Shown: positions 6,548 to 14,900 of the stretch, piece by piece
How positions within the stretch are numbered: position 1 is the stretch's first letter
How the letters are laid out: each line of letters starts with the position of its first letter
IMG/VR virus record: IMGVR_UViG_2579779049_000014
Location: 1-22,295 of that record
Origin: a virus
Taxonomy: Duplodnaviria > Heunggongvirae > Uroviricota > Caudoviricetes
Direction: 5' to 3' (one strand)
Length of the DNA: 22,295 nt
Made by a program: the position numbers and the translations under genes
The notes under the pieces: generated by a model
What the model was told of the DNA's origin: nothing
What the model saw: the letters and a program-made list of their open reading frames with translations, nothing else
Database searches by the model: none

Positions 6548-7131
6548 GCAACGTAATTTTTACTTATAACGAAGAAGCAGCACTGACCGCAGGGCAAGGT
6601 GGTTTTATTAACGAAACTGGCGCTCACATAATTACCATTACTGAAGCAGAACTCAAGCAATCAGAAAAAGGAGCCAAATTTATTGAGTTTTCTGGAGAAT
6701 CCGACGACGGACGTAAAATCCAGTATCTTAGCGTCTGTGTTCAGAAAAATGACGGCACGGAAAACAAATTTGGCGCAAATGTCGTTCACGCCATGATGGG
6801 GTGTGCCGGGATTGGACAATTAACGCAACATATGGTTTCCGCCAGTAAATTTGTTGCACCTGAATTTCATGGAAAGAAAATCGGGTTAGTGCTCCAGAAA
6901 GTATTAACCACAAACAAAAAGACTGGCGCAGACAGCTACCAGATGGAAATACGCATCCCGTTTATTGCACAAACAGGTCAAACCCTTAAAGAAAAGGCAG
7001 AAGGCAAGCAACCAGAAACTATCGCCAACATGGTTGCCAGCCTCAAAGATAAAGACAATCGCTCTAAAAACGTAAGCCATAATCATGCAGATGATTATGG
7101 TTACAGCCAGAACGATTACCCTCCTTTCTGA
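6544..7131 (+). CDS. Putative ssDNA-binding partner protein (SSB-like C-terminal tail)
   Basis: Start overlaps the upstream stop (ATGA); the acidic/aromatic C-terminus …HADDYGYSQNDYPPF resembles SSB tails that end in PF; sits next to the Sak4-like ATPase. Confidence 0.4.
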   Translation: MSNVIFTYNEEAALTAGQGGFINETGAHIITITEAELKQSEKGAKFIEFSGESDDGRKIQYLSVCVQKNDGTENKFGANVVHAMMGCAGIGQLTQHMVSASKFVAPEFHGKKIGLVLQKVLTTNKKTGADSYQMEIRIPFIAQTGQTLKEKAEGKQPETIANMVASLKDKDNRSKNVSHNHADDYGYSQNDYPPF

Positions 7132-7154
7132 TTACTGAAAATAAGGCTCCCATT

Positions 7155-7451
7155 ATGCCAGCGCCTCTGTATGGTGCGGATGACCCGCGCAACTGCTCCG
7201 GTAGCTCCAAGGCGGAGGTGCTGGAAAATATCAAAAACAATTTCGACGCGTTTCTTGCTCTGACACCAGAAACAAAAGCAGAACGGATGTACCGACGCGA
7301 TATACAACTCGCGCTAAAACAGGAGAAGGACCGAACAAACGAAACAGCAATGAGACCGTTGCGAAAAGCGACAATAGACAAATTCCCTGAATATATCGAC
7401 CCGCGCCTGCGTAATTACCGCTCACGCTATGGCGCTATCAGTAATGACTGA
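7155..7451 (+). CDS. Hypothetical protein
   Basis: 98-aa ORF on the operon strand; weak Shine-Dalgarno. Confidence 0.45.
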
Positions 7452-7461
7452 GGAATTTACC

Positions 7462-7629
7462 ATGAGAGGACTTGCATACAATCCCGGCATTCTTCCGGCA
7501 GAAATGATTATTCGCCAACGCGTAAAGCCAATGCCCTCGAGAGAGGAATTGCTTAAGAGAAAGAGTTTCGGTTCTGTTAATGACAACAAATATCTGAATG
7601 CGATGTTGCGCAAAGGAGGCAACCAGTGA
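7462..7629 (+). CDS. Small protein sharing the C-terminal RKGGNQ junction module
   Basis: ATG at 7462 with GAGGAA upstream; ends …MLRKGGNQ, with its stop overlapping the GTG start of the next gene. Confidence 0.4.
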
Positions 7630-8255
7630 GCAAAATTGACTATCAGGCACTGCGTGAGGCGGCAGTAGCAATTGAAACAGTAGCAACGCCTCAAAAATTG
7701 CTGGCATTTCGTATGAAAGTCACACCTCAGGTTGTGCTGGCGCTACTGGATGAACGAGATGCATTAAACGAACGCATAGCCGAACTGGAGGCTAATTTAG
7801 CGGAGCTGGCCGAAGACCAACAGAAAGCGATTGAGTCAATTAAGCAGGCTGATGCGGCTGTTAAGTTGGCACACGAGAAGTTTTCGGTGCTGGCGGCAGA
7901 GAATGCGGAGCTTAAACAGTCGGAGAAGGAATTTAATAACTTCTGTCGTCAGGAGTACTACGGTTGGGAGGACAACTTCACGGAAACCCCAGCCACCGAC
8001 GCTTTCCTGGCTGAAATTCGTGCGGCGGCTCGCAACGAGGGTATTAACTATACCGCAAGCCGTCTTGCTGCTGCTTTCAATCACGGATTTATCAATAAGT
8101 CTTTGCGTGAAGTTTTCGACGTTACACGCATGATTTTGTCAGCGAAAGAAGAGTTGGCTAATGAAGCGCATCCGATTGATGGCCTGTCTGGTGAATATGC
8201 GGAGAAATCCCTTGAAGAATGGGCGGAACAGATTCGCAAAGGAGGAAACCAGTGA
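7626..8255 (+). CDS. Ea22-like early protein (coiled-coil), paralog 1
   Basis: GTG start at 7626 preceded by AAAGGAGG; [13 protein letters not shown]…, coiled-coil central part, ends …IRKGGNQ; lies in the lambda ea22 position. Confidence 0.55.
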
Positions 8256-8845
8256 GCAAGATTGACTATCAGGTACTGCGTGAAAAGGCAGAAAAAGCAA
8301 CGTGTGGTGAGTGGTCTCTCGAATATGGAGAGAGCCGATTTGATGGTGATGATGCACTAATTCATCGCGAGGCTGCTGGATATATTCCCATTTGCAGAAT
8401 TGAAGGAGCGCATCCTGAAAGCGGTTTCGATGAAGATTTCCAAATGGAACAGCAGGCCAATGCTGAATTCATCGCCGCAGCCAATCCGGCTACCGTCTTG
8501 GCGCTGCTGGATGAGCTGGAAAGAAACCAGCAATACATCAAACGCCGCGACCAGGAGAACGAGGATATTGCGCTAACGGTAGGGAAACTGCGTGTTGAGC
8601 TTGAGGAAGCAAAATCAAAACTCAACGAGCAACGCGAGTATTACGAGGGAGTAATCGCGGATGGAAGTAAGCGCATAGCAGAACTGTCTGCTAGCCACAG
8701 CAAATTGCGCGACACAATGGCTGGCATCCACAACACAATCCGAATGGATGGCGGCTATACGCCACTGGCAGCAATCCTTAACGCTGCTAAACGCGCATAT
8801 GAAGAATCAGCAAGCGCCGCTGGCATCAAGGAGGAGTCTGAGTGA
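8252..8845 (+). CDS. Ea22-like early protein, paralog 2
   Basis: GTG start at 8252 after AAAGGAGG; [13 protein letters not shown]…; the N-terminus and the upstream DNA are near-repeats of paralog 1. Confidence 0.55.
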   Translation: MSKIDYQVLREKAEKATCGEWSLEYGESRFDGDDALIHREAAGYIPICRIEGAHPESGFDEDFQMEQQANAEFIAAANPATVLALLDELERNQQYIKRRDQENEDIALTVGKLRVELEEAKSKLNEQREYYEGVIADGSKRIAELSASHSKLRDTMAGIHNTIRMDGGYTPLAAILNAAKRAYEESASAAGIKEESE

Positions 8846-9336
8846 TGGTCATTTCACCTATAACGCTGAAAGCGGCGCAGGAATTTATCGCACAGCACCA
8901 CCGACACAATAAACCACCAGTGGGGCATAAATTCAGCATTGGTCTGAGAAATAATGCCGGAGAATTGATAGGTGTGGCGACAGCTGGTCGACCTGTTGCA
9001 CGACATTTGGACGATGGATTAACGCTTGAAGTAAATCGCACATGTACCACAGGAGAACGCAACGCTAACAGCGCGCTTTATGGTGCTGTCTGGCGGGCAG
9101 CAAAAGCTATGGGTTATCAACGTTGTATTACGTACACCCAGGCAGATGAATCAGGAGCATCTCTTCGCGCAGCTGGTTTTGTTCGTGTGAAAGAGCTTCC
9201 TCCAAGAAAAAGCTGGGCGGAATCAAGCGTCGCCCTGCGGAGTAAACGCGATCCGGTCGGAAACGGTGGTATTCCTCGTGTGCTCTGGGAAATCAGGAGA
9301 ATGAGTACCGCTGGCATTCGCATCAAAGGAGAGTGA
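8845..9336 (+). CDS. Hypothetical protein, possible GNAT-like acyltransferase fold
   Basis: ATG at 8845 with AAGGAGGAG 7 nt upstream (GTG at 8842 is the alternative). Segments …GVATAGRPVARHLDDG… and …YTQADESGASLRAAGFVRV… resemble GNAT motifs; weak. Confidence 0.4.
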   Translation: MVISPITLKAAQEFIAQHHRHNKPPVGHKFSIGLRNNAGELIGVATAGRPVARHLDDGLTLEVNRTCTTGERNANSALYGAVWRAAKAMGYQRCITYTQADESGASLRAAGFVRVKELPPRKSWAESSVALRSKRDPVGNGGIPRVLWEIRRMSTAGIRIKGE

Positions 9337-9337
9337 G

Positions 9338-9529
9338 ATGAACGGACAAATCTCAATTGTTCGACCGGGAGCATGTGACGATCGCGAGATACGAATGATT
9401 ATTCGTCTGGCGATGGGGAAAACAATAACTGCTCTCATTACTCCAGAAAATCTCGCATTAGCATTAACCGGAAAGTCAGACCTGCCAGTAGAGCTAAAGC
9501 TGCGAAATGTTGAGATTAAGGTGAAATAG
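9338..9529 (+). CDS. Hypothetical small protein
   Basis: 63 aa; AAGGAG upstream; tightly coupled to its neighbours. Confidence 0.45.
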   Translation: MNGQISIVRPGACDDREIRMIIRLAMGKTITALITPENLALALTGKSDLPVELKLRNVEIKVK

Positions 9530-9531
9530 CT

Positions 9532-10143
9532 ATGACCACTATTACCGACAAAGAGCTAATTAAAGAAATTAAAGAACATATCAGCAGTCTGGGGGTGCGG
9601 GACAATATTGAGCGCCGTGCTTATGAAATTGCGTTGACTGCATTGACCGCTGAACCATTCGCCACTATCGACACCGCGGGAATTGAGCTCGTTAAATATG
9701 GTTGTAACACGTTTATTAGTCCCGACAATTCGATGGATCCGGGAAATGTACCGCTATATATCGGCCTGCCACGAATTGAGCCAGCAAGCCAGACTGCCAA
9801 GCTGTCATTCCAGGAATGGTTGTCAGAACAAAAAGAAAAAATAGACGTTGATTGCGGATGTGTGAGCACTGAAACGCTTATGCACTGGATGCGTGTGGCG
9901 TATGAGGCTGGCAACTCTCCGGTAATTCCGGATGGTTGGATAAGCTGTAGTGAGCGAATGCCAGAAATTAGACAAACAGTTATTGGATGGAATGAATATG
10001 CAGTTAGACAATGCGTATATACAAGGAATGAATATGCCAAGACACAGAAAGGCAGAGAGCCAAGGTTTGAAACCTTAACTGGTATATGGCATGGAGTAAC
10101 CCACTGGATGCCGCTACCAGAACCGCCGCAGGAGGTGAACTGA
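9532..10143 (+). CDS. DUF551 domain protein
   Basis: C-terminal …WHGVTHWMPLPEPPQ matches the DUF551 signature common in enterobacterial prophage early regions. Confidence 0.6.
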   Translation: MTTITDKELIKEIKEHISSLGVRDNIERRAYEIALTALTAEPFATIDTAGIELVKYGCNTFISPDNSMDPGNVPLYIGLPRIEPASQTAKLSFQEWLSEQKEKIDVDCGCVSTETLMHWMRVAYEAGNSPVIPDGWISCSERMPEIRQTVIGWNEYAVRQCVYTRNEYAKTQKGREPRFETLTGIWHGVTHWMPLPEPPQEVN

Positions 10144-10538
10144 TGGAAAATGAAGGCGATAATATCATCACACTGGTGCAGCCAAAGCGCGATGAAGAGA
10201 AGCTGCTGAACATTACAGTAACTGGCAGAAAAAACTACACACAACAGAGCTGTAAGCATCGGGCCATTGAGGTTCATGAACAGGATCACGTTATCCTGTG
10301 CTTGCAGTGCGGATGTGTTGTGGACCCTTTTCAGTATGTTCTGCGGTGTGCGAACGATGGTGAGGCTGTGGTGAGAGAGATTAGACAGCTTCATAACAGA
10401 CACGATCAGCTCCGAGAATCTGTTGCCAGCCTCGAGCGTGAAGAAAAGAACACCAAAGCACGGTTGCGGGCAGCAAGAACTGCAATACTGTATGCGGAAA
10501 ATGACCTTAAAAATATTGAGCAGAAGGTGAATCAATGA
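10143..10538 (+). CDS. Hypothetical protein with a Cys/His cluster and C-terminal coiled coil
   Basis: ATG at 10143 overlaps the upstream stop (TGATG); GGAGGTG upstream; C-x4-H … H-x4-CLQCGC may bind zinc. Confidence 0.5.
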   Translation: MENEGDNIITLVQPKRDEEKLLNITVTGRKNYTQQSCKHRAIEVHEQDHVILCLQCGCVVDPFQYVLRCANDGEAVVREIRQLHNRHDQLRESVASLEREEKNTKARLRAARTAILYAENDLKNIEQKVNQ

Positions 10539-10618
10539 CCTGGCCTGAAGCATTCGCAAATGTAGGAACAGTAATGGCGGTGGTGCTGGTTGTGTATTCG
10601 ATTTGTCGCTGGAGATAA
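10535..10618 (+). CDS. Possible 27-aa hydrophobic peptide
   Basis: ATG at 10535 with AAGGTGA upstream; MTWPEAFANVGTVMAVVLVVYSICRWR, one predicted transmembrane helix. Confidence 0.25.
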   Translation: MTWPEAFANVGTVMAVVLVVYSICRWR

Positions 10619-10744
10619 AAACGGTTTGCGGGAAAAGGAGAGTTAAGTAGAATTGCTGCGGGTGCTTGAGGCTATCTGCCTCGGGCATGAACACCAACGG
10701 CAGATAGAGAAAAGCCCCAGTTAACATTACGCGTCCGGCAAGAC

Positions 10745-10815
10745 GCTTAACATTAATCTGAGGCTCAATCCATGCTGAACACATGTAGGTTAGCCTCTTA
10801 CGTGCCGAAAGGCAA
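10745..10815 (-). ncRNA. sok: Predicted Sok-type antisense RNA (boundaries approximate)
   Basis: Inferred from hok/mok family architecture, where the antisense RNA is complementary to the mok translation-initiation region; promoter and terminator were not resolved. Confidence 0.3.
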
Positions 10816-10984
10816 GGAGAAGCAGGCTATGAAGCAGCAAAAGGCGATGTTAATCGCCCTGATCGTCATCTGTTTAACCGTCATAGTGACGGCACTGGTA
10901 ACGAGGAAAGACCTCTGCGAGGTGCGAATCCGAACCGGTCAGACGGAGGTCGCTGTCTTCGTAGACTACGAATCTGAGAAGTAA
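10772..10984 (+). CDS. mok: mok-type coupling reading frame, in-frame N-terminal extension of hok
   Basis: The 70-aa track ORF beginning MLNTCRLASYVPKGKEKQA continues in frame into the Hok sequence. Confidence 0.45.
   Translation: MLNTCRLASYVPKGKEKQAMKQQKAMLIALIVICLTVIVTALVTRKDLCEVRIRTGQTEVAVFVDYESEK
10829..10984 (+). CDS. hok: Hok/Gef family type I toxin (small membrane toxin)
   Basis: MKQQKAMLIALIVICLTVIVTALVTRKDLCEVRIRTGQTEVAVFVDYESEK fits the Hok/Gef signature (hydrophobic helix, TRKxLCE, EVA.F) and is closest to HokC/HokD; AAGGAG upstream. Confidence 0.85.
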   Translation: MKQQKAMLIALIVICLTVIVTALVTRKDLCEVRIRTGQTEVAVFVDYESEK

Positions 10985-11103
10985 GAGACCAGGCGGGGGA
11001 GTAATCTCCCGCCACCTCTGATGTGTCAGGCATCCTCAACGCACCCGCGCTTTACCATACTGAAAATGCTGTTTGAATGTTCATCTCTGAAAGAGGACTA
11101 TGA

Positions 11104-11448
11104 ATGAAAAAGGTATTGATTGCAGCACTTATTTCTGGTGTGTCTTTTGGCGCTTTTGCACAGCAGGGCGGTTTCCAAGGGCCTGAAGCAGAGCGTTCAA
11201 CAGTAGCGCAGGCAAAAGAACTGAAGGATGATGCATGGGTTATCCTTGAAGGGAGCATCGTTAAAAAAGTGGGTGATGAACGTTATGAGTTTCGTGACAA
11301 TAGCGGGACAATTGTCACGGATATCGATGACAGCATATGGGCCGGTCAGAATGTTTCTCCGAAAGACAAAGTAAGAATTGAGGGTGAAATTGATAAAGAC
11401 CTGAGCAGTGTTGAAGTGGATGTAAAGGCACTGAAATTATTAAAGTAA
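11104..11448 (+). CDS. YgiW/YdeI-family (BOF) periplasmic OB-fold protein
   Basis: Signal peptide MKKVLIAALISGVSFGAFA, then the family pattern …ERYEFRDNSGTIVTDIDDSIWAGQNVSPKDKVRIEGEIDKD…; AAGAGG upstream. Confidence 0.7.
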   Translation: MKKVLIAALISGVSFGAFAQQGGFQGPEAERSTVAQAKELKDDAWVILEGSIVKKVGDERYEFRDNSGTIVTDIDDSIWAGQNVSPKDKVRIEGEIDKDLSSVEVDVKALKLLK

Positions 11449-11465
11449 CCGTCCCAGCTTGCTAA

Positions 11466-11492
11466 GCCCGTCTTACTGACGGGTTTTCTGTT
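11466..11492 (+). terminator. Rho-independent terminator
   Basis: CCCGTC-TTACTG-ACGGG followed by TTTTCTGTTTGTT. Confidence 0.65.
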
Positions 11493-11527
11493 TGTTATCA
11501 CAGTATTTTTCAACAAAACACCGAATC

Positions 11528-11900
11528 TTATCCGGTGCGCTGTAAAACCCCGTCCTTCAGGGCGTGGAGGATGTCAAATGGCGTATATTTGGATATAAGA
11601 AAGCCATCCAATACTGGCTGAAAAAACTCCTCATCGATATCATCGTGGGCCTGAATAGTTCCATCCGCAATTCTGATTGCCGGTATTGTTCCCCGGCGAT
11701 AAGGGGTGAACATCATCCCGGTTACATCAGATCGCCTAATAACATATCAAGATTATTTTGCTCATAAATGCTATTCGCCATTACCGTTGCTGCTTCAGCT
11801 TAATGAAACGCATAGATCCGCCATGCTTTTTCAGCAAATACGCTGCCATTTGCGCAACTTTTTCTTCATTAAACATAAATCGGCTCTCTGTATCACATGA
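11528..11900 (-). pseudogene. Fragmented minus-strand reading frames, possibly a frameshifted gene remnant
   Basis: A 31-codon ORF (MFNEEKVAQMAAYLLKKHGGSMRFIKLKQQR) is followed in other frames by short ORFs and the 62-aa track ORF at 11528..11716; no intact gene spans the region. Confidence 0.25.
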
Positions 11901-11968
11901 AATGCTCTTCTGACTATATGTTAATAGCTCCGGTTATTACAGGTCAATGAGTGTTTATTTCTTAATCA

Positions 11969-11992
11969 GCCCCGCACTTCCGTACGGGGCCA
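11969..11992. terminator. Hairpin at the 3' end of the giant gene
   Basis: GCCCCG-CACTTCCGTA-CGGGGC inverted repeat in the convergence zone; no strong T-run on either strand. Confidence 0.3.
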
Positions 11993-11998
11993 TTTCTG

Positions 11999-14900
11999 TT
12001 AATCCACTCCCACTTTTTTGTTGTACTCGCGGTTAAACCGATCCACGGCAATTTTCATATCCCGCTCTACCGATTTCACCATCGCCGACTGTTGCGCCAG
12101 ACTGAGAGTACTGTCGGCGTAAATGGCATCACGCTGTTTACGCAAATCCTTCAGTCTCTTCCGGGTATCCTGCATAAGCCCGTTCATCGACAATTTTCCG
12201 TTGTTCTCGTCAATGAACGCCGTTCTTTCTGCACCGGTCAGACTCTTCAGCTCTGCGTGATACTGCGCAATCTCTGTCATCCGGTCGTACATCTTCTGCT
12301 GGTCTGCATACGGCATCACCTCACCTGAAATTTTCCCCAGGAAGGGCACCTGCTGCTCCGGTATATCAATACCATTCAGCGATTTCACCGCCGCATCCGT
12401 GGTTTTGGAAATGAAGCGCCCTGTCCCTCCGGAGATATAGTCCACCCAGTATTTCAGCGATTCCGGTGTGATATCCACCGCGCCGGGACGGTACTGGCTG
12501 CCACCAGAGAACGCATTCAGCCAGGATGCAAACGCCTTGTACGCTTCTGGCGTTGAACGTCTTCCCAGCTGGCTGTCAGGTTTTGGTGTACCAAACGGCA
12601 TGTTCTCCTGGTAAATCTGCGCCCCCATGAAGTTTTCATTCATGGCAAGGTTCGCAAACGGACGCAGAATGGTCGGCGCTGCATTTTTCAGCAATGCCCC
12701 GGACAGTGTTTCCGACGTCTCACTGCCCACAGGACTGAATGCCCCAAGCACACCACCAACAACATTACCGGCAGCACGTGAAGCGGTCAGGTCGCCCGCT
12801 GCCACCCCTTCGGCTGTGTGACCAAGCAGGAAGAAAACGTTGTACCCGTAAGGCAGAGGAATACTCCAGTACTCTCCGGCCTTGCCCCCGAACACCGATT
12901 TCATAATGACGAGGTTACGCTCTTTCACATGAGACGGCACCTTGTCATACCAGTTAACCCCGTCATCATCCTCCCCCGCAACACTGCGGTTAAGCGAGCC
13001 AAGCAGATAACCCGCTCCCACAGCTGCAAGCGCGATTTTCTGCGGTACATTGAGATTCTTCCAGCGAAGGCGCTCCAGTAACGGCCCGTCGCCATTAAGA
13101 TGTCCGAGCGTTCTCACCAGGTTTGCGGTCCCCTGAATGCTGGCGTTGGCGAACATGTACAGCGAGTTCATCAGCGCTCCCTGCTCACCACGACGGTTAA
13201 AGTTCACCGTCATGTTTTTGGCAAGAGACGCCGCCTGCTGGCGTGACAAACCGGCATCACGGGCGTGTTTATAGGCAGAAAGACGCAGAGCGTTTTCAAC
13301 CGCCCCGTTGGCATCCTCGACAAGGTTAAGGAACGAATTCCATGCACCGATACTCTGGCCTTTCCATCCTCCCTTCGCCAGCGATACAAGGCGATCCATT
13401 TCCTTCTGCTGGCCTTCAAGGTCACCCATGTTAAACCAGCCGGTTTTACCTCCGTCCTCAACAAACTCTTTCCACACCTTCTGCCACTGTGCACCTTTTC
13501 CCGTGAGGGTTTTACCACGCAGACTGGCGTATACGGCTGACATGGCAGAACGGCTGTCTTTCACCACAGCCAGGGCGGATAAGTTATCCAGCCCTTTCAG
13601 TTTACCGTCGCTCCTTCCCTGCTCCGCCTTCAGGTTCATCACCGCCGTCTGCACGTCACGGATGAAGTTACTGACCAGGAATTCCGGGTTATACGACGTG
13701 TTCACCGTTGCCAGGAAGCGGTTAACTTTCCCCAGCGTACGAACAAAGGCATTGCTGGTTTCCGGTCCCATATTCTTCATCGCACGCATCAGGCGCGGAT
13801 CATGGAGTTTGATGTAGTACGTTTTGCCGTTCTTTTTGGTGGTGAAGTACCGGTCTGCCATCATTGCCATCGGTACAGGGCGTTCGACAACTTCGCGAAT
13901 GGTTTCACCAGTTTCCTGGTCCTTGCGCTCTGCAATCGTCCGCATGGTATCCGGTCTGTCATCGGTGAATACCTGCCAGTAATCCTTGTCGGGATTATCC
14001 TGCACCAGTTTCAGGAAGGCGTTACCCACTTCGTTTTTGCGATGGCGGATCAGCGATTCGCTCAGGTCCTGTATCGCCTGAGTGGACGGAGACTGTGCAC
14101 GGGATGCACGCCCCATGGCCTGCCTGCTTTCACGTCCGCCGATGGTGAAGCCCTTACCTGTACGGGGAAGTGACACCACACCGTCAACATCCTGACCTTT
14201 CAGGGGAACGTAGTAACGGTAAGCTTTCTGCCAGGCATCCACAACACCGCTCTCTTCCAGTCCGGCTTCACGGATAAGCTCACGGCGACGGGCCAGCATA
14301 TCGTCAACAATCCCTGCCAGACGGTCATACTGTGCCTGTTTGCCGCTGTTACGCACACGCTGCATGATTTCCGCCGCTTCCGCGTTGGTCATCCCCGAAC
14401 CGCCGTCCGGCATTTTCGGGTTGATTTTCGCGATATGCGCGTTACGTTCCGGCGCGTGACGGGCGTAGAGGTACTCATCCAGATCGGCCTGCGCAATTTT
14501 GTAGTCCGCCAGTAATTTAGCCAGTGGCTGAACGTAGCGCTCCTTCATCACGTTCAGGTCGTTTTCCGCCTTCCCGTGGAAGAGTTCTTCCGCCATATAA
14601 GCGTTGTTACTGTCGTCCACTTTGCCGCCAGTTTTACGGATATTCTCCTGAACAGCTTTCAGCACCTGGAATTTATCCTGCATCTGGCGCACAAAACGCG
14701 ATGCAATTGTCTCTTCCGGTGTCAGACTGCTGGTACGGGAGTAATACGGCCCCTTGCGAATATCTTCAGGATAGAGTATTTTATCCGCAGAGCCGCGATA
14801 AGAATGTTCCCCTTTGGGCAATTGGAGCCCTCTGTGCAGAAGGTTATCGCGGCTTAATTTTTCTCTCCGGTACAACGTTAACCCGGTCATTTCCATACTC

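What the first reader, a model, noticed from the sequence alone, without database searches (positions are those of the whole stretch)
11449..11998. Convergence zone with degraded ORFs and no integrase between the early and virion operons
The plus-strand early operon and the minus-strand virion operon end about 550 bp apart. This is where an int/xis/att module would be expected in many lambdoid prophages, but only fragmented frames and a hairpin (11969-11992) are present. The element may be defective, may use an integration module outside the window, or may have lost the module by deletion. The virion side also appears more GC-rich to the eye than the early region.
Basis: partly seen in the sequence, partly recalled or inferred. 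Interest (0 to 1): 0.45.

Follow-up and report, generated by a model that had tools for sequence, protein, structure and literature searches.

The report
Decayed toxin-antitoxin cassette in Stx phage
The 550-base gap between two converging gene blocks of this Shiga-toxin phage is the wreck of a small toxin-antitoxin gene pair flanked by transcription stop signals, not the remains of an integrase, so it is an ordinary and widely shared feature of 933W-type phages.

Summary
The YgiW-like gene ends at 11448 and the 2806-aa LPD38 virion gene ends at 11999, which leaves 550 bp. That gap holds only broken frames and a strong hairpin at 11969-11992. GC is 44.8% on the left and 53.6% on the right.

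All of 11499-11998 aligns to an intact two-gene cassette that relatives carry at the same site. That cassette is a SocA/Panacea antitoxin (186 aa) followed by a 133-aa protein with a MazF-like fold. In the window the antitoxin gene lost about 406 bp, out of frame. The toxin gene lost 225 bp, which removed its beta-barrel core, and it gained a 46-nt IS200/IS605-derived mini-element. Nothing in the gap derives from int, xis or att. The gap is 100% identical in about 100 complete E. coli genomes. Across 11000-12600 it is 99.6% identical to 933W, whose att and int lie elsewhere.

The integrase is missing for a different reason. At 10102-10147 a TL-2011a-like early-left block, which normally runs on to xis-int-wrbA, joins the 933W right arm inside a 46-bp shared motif. 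The window is a whole draft contig of E. coli O111:H- 95NR1, a strain with two abutting tandem Stx2 prophages. The integrase is therefore most likely outside the window. Interest is low.

The parts
11104..11448 (+). YgiW/BOF-family gene (933W L0136), the last gene of the plus-strand block
   Evidence: Pfam BOF 5.1e-33; annotated as L0136 and as a NirD/YgiW/YdeI family protein in relatives
11464..11496 (+). Intrinsic-terminator-like hairpin plus T-run that closes the plus-strand block
   Evidence: 9-bp stem followed by TCTGTTTGTT; -15.7 kcal/mol, z = -4.0. This ~47-bp segment accompanies the upstream block in many other genomes (query 1-47 hits)
11499..11716 (-). Remnant of the 133-aa MazF-fold partner (PanT-like) gene. 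The 62-aa ORF 11528-11716 is 933W L0135
   Evidence: blastn to the intact locus: window 11688-11580 = L011 6254-6362 and 11531-11499 = L011 6365-6397. A 225-bp in-frame deletion lies between imperfect 11-nt repeats at 11678-11688. phrog_1925 5e-48
11532..11577 (.). 46-nt miniature IS200/IS605-derived element inserted 3' of TTTAT. It supplies the last 16 codons and the stop of the L0135 ORF
   Evidence: Absent from the intact locus. Copies with unrelated flanks occur elsewhere. Its two halves match the left-end and right-end hairpins of a tnpA-tnpB copy in L020
11508..11538 (-). Terminator-like hairpin plus T-run after the L0135 stop, formed half by the mini-element and half by native sequence
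   Evidence: -13.5 kcal/mol, z = -4.1
11720..11876 (-). Remnant of the SocA/Panacea antitoxin gene. It keeps the first 27 codons (ORF 11781-11876) and the last ~24 codons in another frame (stop 11722-11724)
   Evidence: Window 12100-11789 = L011 5210-5522 and 11796-11678 = L011 5921-6039, with about 406 bp missing between them. Full-length relatives match PF13274 at 2.5e-19. Cluster mates are named Panacea domain-containing protein, partial
11918..11947 (-). Sigma-70-like promoter candidate of the cassette (TTGACC, 18-nt spacer, TAACAT)
   Evidence: This is a consensus match only, and the region's count equals what shuffles give. The sequence is conserved in the intact locus
11969..11992 (.). 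GC-rich hairpin 7 nt after the LPD38 stop. It is a module boundary and a probable transcription stop
   Evidence: Homology with phi345 ends at 11962. In L011 a 148-bp copy of the LPD38 3' end plus this hairpin is repeated on the far side of the cassette
11999..20419 (-). 2806-aa polyvalent virion protein gene (933W L0134), the last gene of the minus-strand block
   Evidence: Pfam LPD38, LPD5, LPD1 and MuF_C
10102..10147 (.). 46-bp join shared by both parental blocks (the end of a DUF551 gene). It explains why no int/xis/att lies in the window
   Evidence: Window 4749-10147 is 99.9% identical to L023 and L025, which continue to xis-int-wrbA. Window 10102-22295 is 98.96% identical to 933W

Best explanation
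The gap is a non-functional spacer. It consists of the decayed remains of a moron-type PanA-PanT toxin-antitoxin cassette, bracketed by the transcription stop signals of two converging gene blocks.

Shown: relatives carry an intact cassette immediately after the LPD38 hairpin. It encodes a 186-aa Panacea-domain antitoxin followed by a 133-aa protein with a MazF/PemK-like fold. The window keeps codons 1-27 and the last ~24 codons of the antitoxin gene, with about 406 bp deleted out of frame. It keeps codons 1-11 and about 87-124 of the partner gene, with 75 codons deleted. That deletion removes all the main beta strands and the conserved residues H20, D55, C58, H65 and Y76. A 46-nt IS200/IS605 mini-element is inserted near the 3' end.

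Inferred: the partner was a toxin that the antitoxin neutralised by direct binding. The toxin was disabled first and the antitoxin then decayed neutrally. Today the zone only ends transcription, at about 11490 on the + strand and at 11969-11992 and about 11510 on the - strand.

The missing integrase is a separate matter. The contig joins the early-left arm of one Stx2 prophage to the right arm of a 933W-type prophage at a 46-bp shared motif (10102-10147). This most likely reflects the int-less joint of the tandem prophages Phi14 and Phi15 of strain 95NR1. The working integrase would then lie outside the window.
For: - Whole-zone homology to the intact locus, with breakpoints mapped.
- The intact gene order LPD38, then Panacea 186 aa, then 133 aa, in eight independent contigs.
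- PF13274 at 2.5e-19 for a full-length relative.
- AlphaFold model with pLDDT 96.3. All 50 best PDB matches are MazF/PemK toxins, probability about 1.0, TM 0.5-0.7.
- The pairing with a Panacea gene is kept in homologues only ~50% identical, with a 4-nt overlap.
- The partner family has 1767 representatives.
- Several decay states exist. Antitoxin-only states are seen, but none with an intact toxin and a broken antitoxin.
- 2014C-3338 has lost a further 119 bp of L0135, which argues against constraint.
- Terminator hairpins.
- For the integrase question: define the join. The closed genome F8798 has the same int-less architecture, with one int 58 kb away at sbcB. The source strain and its abutting tandem Stx2 prophages are documented, one of them rated incomplete by PHAST (PMC6602927).
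Against: - Toxicity and neutralisation were not tested for this pair.
- No Pfam, PADLOC or PDB sequence match exists for the 133-aa protein. Sequence identity to MazF is 8-14%, and its conserved His/Cys residues differ from the MazF catalytic residues known from the literature.
- The - strand hairpin lacks a U-tract, so it was not called a terminator.
- The 62-aa and 31-aa remnant ORFs may still be expressed. Their perfect conservation is uninformative, because all carriers are near-identical phages.
- The join at 10102-10147 could be a short-read assembly chimera. It occurs in only one contig in the gene-position index, and exact-pattern scans found it nowhere else.
Confidence: 0.85

Rival explanations
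1. The gap is the scar of a lost int/xis/att module. An integrase once sat here, as in P27-type relatives, and decayed into the fragmented frames.
For: In phi345 (Traversvirus P27 type) a 954-bp integrase gene lies directly between the end of the early-left block and the LPD38 gene. Homology with the window stops 7 nt beyond the hairpin.
Against: Every base from 11499 to 11998 aligns to the PanA-PanT cassette or to the mini-IS, and 11449-11498 is the YgiW-block terminator. No sequence is left over for an int relic. The identical spacer is present in 933W, which has its attR 3.2 kb further on.
Confidence: 0.02
2. The absence of an integrase is an assembly artefact. The Illumina GAII draft contig wrongly joined two prophage arms at the 46-bp repeat 10102-10147. 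In the real chromosome each arm continues to its own int or att.
For: The junction-specific protein is on record in one contig only. Exact junction searches in viral and genome collections gave no hit. The early-left arm continues to xis-int-wrbA in at least six other contigs. The authors state that short reads could not resolve these prophages.
Against: The closed long-read genome F8798 has the same DUF551-to-L0139 join and no int. The PacBio genome of the source strain has two directly abutting Stx2 prophages, the second 3.5 kb shorter and flagged incomplete.
Confidence: 0.25
3. The remnants are not dead. The 62-aa L0135 product, the 31-aa peptide or an RNA from the zone has acquired a new function, and that is why the state is fixed in Stx2a phages.
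For: Both small ORFs keep start codons and a promoter-like site. The state is shared by about 100 complete genomes and about 45 phage records. L0135 forms its own PHROG.
Against: The carriers are near-clonal (99.6-100% identical over the 1.6 kb around the gap), so conservation carries no weight. 2014C-3338, AST198 and the Shigella phages show further or different deletions. No Rfam family reaches threshold in the zone. The deletion removes the whole predicted beta-barrel.
Confidence: 0.05

Closest known systems
PanA-PanT type II toxin-antitoxin pairs (Kurata et al. 2022, PMC8832971), in particular toxin cluster T6, validated for Pseudomonas moraviensis
   Same: The antitoxin-first order, a 1-4 nt overlap or short gap, and a Panacea (PF13274) antitoxin are shared. 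The P. moraviensis antitoxin starts MIFSEQKVAQ and this one starts MFNEEKVAQ. In both cases the toxin is annotated as hypothetical, has no domain-database hit and is predicted to have a MazF/PemK-like fold.
   Different: Here both genes are pseudogenes. Toxicity was not tested.
933W L0135 and the L0134-L0136 intergenic region (AF125520), and the same region in VT2-Sakai, Min27 and the PA-series phages
   Same: The segment is the same: 99.6% identity over 11000-12600 to 933W, Min27 and the PA series, and the gap itself is 100% identical in about 100 genomes. VT2-Sakai carries the same degraded state.
   Different: Those records call L0135 a hypothetical protein or annotate nothing. The cassette origin is not stated in the annotations seen. 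No paper in the searched library mentions L0135.
MazF/PemK endoribonuclease toxins
   Same: The fold is shared: an SH3-like barrel followed by C-terminal helices. All 50 best PDB matches are MazF family members.
   Different: No PemK Pfam match was found and identity is 8-14%. The conserved residues (H20, D55, C58, H65) differ from the MazF catalytic residues known from the literature. The antitoxin is Panacea, not MazE.
Compound or tandem Stx prophages in STEC (PMC6602927, PMC8112680, PMC7645076)
   Same: Two lambdoid prophages abut without chromosomal DNA between them, as in 95NR1 Phi14/Phi15 and in F8798 at sbcB.
   Different: The joint here is not an att site. It lies in a 46-bp conserved gene end, which implies homologous recombination or a deletion rather than site-specific tandem integration.

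Membership tests
SocA/Panacea (PanA) antitoxin | Match to Pfam PF13274 above the gathering score | tested here: not met
   The joined window remnant gives no Pfam hit. Full-length relatives P0004 and P0002 reach 70.7 and 38.5 bits against a cut-off of 25.7, so the window holds a pseudogene of a member.
SocA/Panacea (PanA) antitoxin | Two-gene arrangement with an adjacent partner (toxin) gene | tested here: met
   This holds in the intact relatives L011-L018 and in the divergent loci L031 and L032. Both partners are present as fragments in the window.
SocA/Panacea (PanA) antitoxin | Neutralises the partner's toxicity by direct binding | not testable with these tools
   This needs co-expression and pull-down assays as in PMC8832971.
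MazF/PemK toxin | Sequence-profile match (Pfam PemK_toxin) | tested here: not met
   No Pfam family matched P0001 or any of 66 family members. There was no PDB sequence match.
MazF/PemK toxin | MazF-type fold | tested here: met
   The model has pLDDT 96.3. All Foldseek top 50 hits are MazF/PemK, with probability about 1.0 and TM 0.48-0.71. This applies to the intact relative only. The window copy lacks residues 12-86.
MazF/PemK toxin | Sequence-specific endoribonuclease activity | not testable with these tools
   No assay was possible. The conserved His/Cys pattern differs from the MazF catalytic residues known from the literature.
Lambdoid int/xis/att module | Tyrosine recombinase or excisionase gene at or near the zone | tested here: not met
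   No integrase or excisionase family was found among the window ORFs. The zone is fully accounted for by other homology.
Lambdoid int/xis/att module | att core repeats flanking the element | not testable with these tools
   The window is the whole contig AVDU01000087.1. The closed genome CP021339 is not in the collections.
Intrinsic terminator | GC-rich hairpin followed by a U-run | tested here: met
   The + strand site 11464-11496 and the - strand site 11538-11508 both qualify.
Intrinsic terminator | Same features, for the reported hairpin 11969-11992 | tested here: inconclusive
   The stem is strong (z = -5.9), but no U-run follows on the - strand and it was not called.
IS200/IS605-derived miniature element | Ends matching the left-end and right-end hairpins of a full element | tested here: met
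   Window 11532-11577 combines the left-end sequence (L020 ~2509-2535) with the right-end sequence (L020 ~4228-4258) of a tnpA-tnpB copy.
IS200/IS605-derived miniature element | Insertion 3' of a fixed short target without a target duplication | tested here: met
   TTTAT or CTTAT precedes the element in 3 of 4 copies. Comparison with the uninterrupted locus shows no duplication. The sample is small.

The most novel reading that the evidence does not exclude
The site just after the LPD38 hairpin may be a cargo hotspot of Traversvirus phages. The intact Panacea/MazF-fold pair carried there by rare relatives could be a working phage-borne defence or addiction module of a toxin family with no Pfam entry. 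The 62-aa remnant fixed in 933W and Sakai-type Stx2a phages could keep the antitoxin-binding C-terminal helices and still act, for example as a decoy against related modules of competing phages. Separately, the int-less joint may mean that the second Stx2 prophage of 95NR1 rides on its neighbour's single integrase. That would fit the joint loss of both prophages in strain 95JB1.
Probability: 0.07. Interest if true: 0.45.

Novelty: new member of a known kind. Interest (0 to 1): 0.2.

Why it matters
This result corrects the annotation of a segment present in the reference Stx2a phages 933W and VT2-Sakai. L0135 is a toxin-gene remnant, not a gene of unknown function. It also shows that the convergence zone says nothing about whether the phage can integrate. 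The zone gives a small, clean example of the order in which a toxin-antitoxin pair decays. It points to an uncharacterised MazF-fold family of about 1,800 representative proteins partnered with Panacea antitoxins. Finally, it flags a recurrent 46-bp recombination joint that can fuse Stx prophages without an att site. That joint matters for reading draft STEC assemblies and for counting stx copies.

Tried and rejected
- Pfam on the remnant peptides: no hit.
- PADLOC on the intact pair: no hit.
- PDB sequence search with a 66-member profile of the 133-aa family: no hit.
- Rfam at gathering score over the window: only sok (10660-10834) and the cIII thermoregulator (5414-5472). A permissive scan of 11300-12100 gave only sub-threshold chance-level matches.
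- Exact search for the 10102-10147 junction in viral contigs and genome contigs: 0 hits.
- The closed 95NR1 genome NZ_CP021339.1 is not in the E. coli collection, so the junction could not be verified.
- Literature search for L0135 with 933W: nothing.
- The 387-aa antisense ORF 9621-10784 was considered as a hidden integrase. It has no Pfam family and spans the chimeric join, so it was rejected as spurious.
- My first reading, that attR lies at about 7535 by analogy with LC645440, was dropped. blastn showed the window is collinear with that record and with 933W only from 10102 onward.
- I considered the 46-nt unit as an invertase (gix/hix-like) site or a REP element. I rejected both because its halves match the two ends of an IS200/IS605 copy.

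Full report
**What the window is.** The window is identical to the whole 22,295-bp contig AVDU01000087.1 of assembly GCA_000467695.1. This is the Illumina draft of E. coli O111:H- strain 95NR1 (PMC6602927). The DNA belongs to a 933W-like Stx phage (Sepvirinae, Traversvirus).

On the + strand lie cI (1130-1867), N (3641-4066), cIII/kil, a Sak4-like protein, SSB, abc2, Ea22-like genes, a DUF551 gene (9532-10143), an L0139-like gene, mokW/hokW with sok (Rfam, 10660-10834) and a YgiW/BOF gene (11104-11448). cro and cII are on the - strand at the left end. From 11999 onward the - strand carries the 2806-aa polyvalent LPD38 protein gene and further virion genes.

**Check of the observation.** The two blocks end 550 bp apart, at 11448 and 11999. 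The gap holds no ORF longer than 67 aa, and RefSeq leaves it unannotated. The hairpin at 11969-11992 has a 10-bp stem, -20.5 kcal/mol, z = -5.9. GC is 44.8% to the left, 43.6% in the gap and 53.6% to the right.

**What the gap is.** The start of the - strand reading, MFNEEKVAQMAAYLLKKHGG, looked to me like a Panacea antitoxin. I treated that as a lead and tested it.

- A search with the joined fragments returned full-length proteins carrying PF13274. Pfam confirmed SocA_Panacea at 2.5e-19.
- It also returned a 133-aa protein, P0001, of which L0135 is an internally deleted copy.
- Contigs encoding P0001 show the intact ancestral layout at exactly this site in eight places: LPD38 gene, 124 nt with the same hairpin, a 186-aa Panacea gene, a 5-nt gap, the 133-aa gene, then converging ParB-like, PAPS-reductase-like and Ant genes.

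blastn maps the window onto this locus without leftover sequence:

| Window | L011 | Meaning |
|---|---|---|
| 12100-11789 | 5210-5522 | LPD38 3' end, hairpin, first 27 antitoxin codons |
| (missing) | ~406 bp | out-of-frame deletion in the antitoxin gene |
| 11796-11678 | 5921-6039 | antitoxin 3' end, first 11 partner codons |
| (missing) | 225 bp | in-frame deletion between imperfect 11-nt repeats |
| 11688-11580 | 6254-6362 | partner gene, later part |
| 11577-11532 | none | 46-nt insertion |
| 11531-11499 | 6365-6397 | partner gene 3' end |

The remaining 11449-11498 holds the terminator of the YgiW block. No part of the gap can derive from int, xis or att.

**The partner protein.** The 133-aa family has 1767 representatives at E <= 0.001. 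It has no Pfam, PADLOC or PDB sequence match.

An AlphaFold model built on a 66-sequence alignment has pLDDT 96.3. Its 50 best PDB matches are all MazF/PemK toxins, with probability about 1.0, TM 0.48-0.71 and 8-14% identity. Two homologues only ~50% identical also sit directly after a Panacea gene, with a 4-nt overlap.

This matches the PanA-PanT systems of Kurata et al. (PMC8832971). Their T6 cluster is annotated as hypothetical, has antitoxin-first order, is predicted to be MazF-like, and was validated as a toxin-antitoxin pair in P. moraviensis. I could not test direct homology to T6. Toxicity here is inferred.

The window's deletion removes residues 12-86. That covers the strands at 18-24, 29-31, 36-46 and 72-83, most of the strand at 10-15, and the conserved H20, D55, C58, H65 and Y76. 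The remnant cannot form the barrel.

**Decay series.** No complete E. coli genome of 5,426, and no phage record of 50,697, holds the intact cassette.

- At least three genomes and phage PhiR5_2 keep the antitoxin but only the first codons of the toxin.
- About 100 genomes and about 45 phage records, including 933W and VT2-Sakai, carry exactly the window's state.
- 2014C-3338 has lost a further 119 bp.
- AST198 and the Shigella phages show other truncations.

No state with an intact toxin and a broken antitoxin was seen. This fits the expectation that the toxin must be lost first, which is an inference. Continued erosion argues against function.

**The hairpin as a module boundary.** Homology with phi345 ends 7 nt beyond the hairpin. 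In L011 a 148-bp copy of the LPD38 3' end plus the hairpin recurs on the far side of the cassette. The cassette therefore sits at a recombination joint.

**The 46-nt insertion.** Copies of the unit occur with unrelated flanks elsewhere in E. coli. Of three other copies inspected, one lies within 30 bp of IS200/IS605 genes and one within 350 bp.

In L020 the left end of a tnpA-tnpB element reads ...GTAAAACCCCGTCCTTCAGGGCGGGG and the right end reads ...CCACGTTCTTCAGGGCGTGGAGGATGTCAA. The window unit is the left-end half fused to the right-end half. It lies 3' of TTTAT without a duplication. It supplies the last 16 codons and the stop of L0135, and half of a terminator-like hairpin.

**Why there is no integrase.** Window 4749-10147 is 99.9% identical to prophages in which the DUF551 gene is followed by DUF4752, two small ORFs, an excisionase, a 436-aa integrase and then wrbA. 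Window 10102-22295 is 98.96% identical to 933W, where L0140, TraR, Ant and attR lie upstream of L0139. The two homologies overlap in 46 bp that encode the conserved DUF551 C-terminus. The same motif borders other modules in AST198 and 2014C-3338.

The closed genome of O157:H7 F8798 has the same int-less order, where a short-tailed Stx2a prophage is fused to a long-tailed Stx2c prophage at sbcB. Its only integrase is 58 kb away. The PacBio genome of 95NR1 has two Stx2 prophages that abut base to base (5164024..5226171 and 5226172..5284858). The second is 3.5 kb shorter and was rated questionable or incomplete by PHAST. Both are missing together from sister strain 95JB1.

I conclude, with moderate confidence, that the window spans that joint. 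A short-read chimera at the 46-bp repeat remains possible.

**Comparison with relatives.** It does not apply to 933W-type phages.

**Verdict.** The feature is an ordinary pseudogenised PanA-PanT cassette between terminators. Novelty is limited to an annotation insight and a few side observations.

Noticed in passing
window 10102-10147: A 46-bp stretch encoding the conserved DUF551 C-terminus (HWMPLPEPPQEV). Homology switches here from a TL-2011a-like early-left arm to the 933W right arm. The same motif borders other modules in AST198, 2014C-3338 and F8798, so it looks like a recurrent recombination joint.
   Followed up: yes
window 11532-11577; also L019 ~2505-2550, L020 ~2505-2541, L021 ~2501-2545: A 46-nt unit that looks like the fused left-end and right-end hairpins of an IS200/IS605 element, inserted 3' of TTTAT. 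Matches to this part of the query recur with unrelated flanks in many E. coli genomes and in ~60-kb plasmids.
   Followed up: partly
L011 5210-5342 and 6542-6689: In relatives with the intact cassette, the last ~116 nt of the LPD38 gene plus its hairpin occur twice, flanking the PanA-PanT pair. The downstream copy is closer to the 933W sequence than the upstream one.
   Followed up: partly
window 9621-10784 (- strand): A 387-aa ATG-started ORF runs antisense to the DUF551, L0139 and hok genes and spans the chimeric join. It has no Pfam match and is probably spurious.
   Followed up: partly
window 10660-10984: A complete hok/sok type I toxin-antitoxin locus (Rfam sok 113.5 bits; mokW/hokW ORF 10772-10984) lies only ~500 bp from the decayed type II cassette.
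   Followed up: partly
window 4018-4701: An Nmad5-family (putative nucleotide-modification) gene sits right after N in the early-left operon. A short Mom-like ORF at 8842-9336 falls below the Pfam threshold (24.2 bits against 27.1).
   Followed up: no
L011 6764-8619 (and L012-L018): In the intact-cassette relatives the converging genes are a ParB-like protein and a PAPS-reductase/DUF3440 protein, with weak BrxP and DndC matches. This may be a DNA-modification or defence pair at the prophage end.
   Followed up: no
window 7626-8255 and 8219-8845: Two consecutive Ea22-like ORFs overlap by 37 nt. Relatives L023 and L024 have a shorter second copy (197 aa against 208 aa), which suggests local rearrangement in this repeat-rich gene family.
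   Followed up: no
P0001 family alignment A5: The MazF-fold partner family has an invariant His (H20) and near-invariant D55, C58, H65 and Y76. This pattern is unlike the MazF catalytic residues known from the literature and may indicate different chemistry or metal binding.
   Followed up: no
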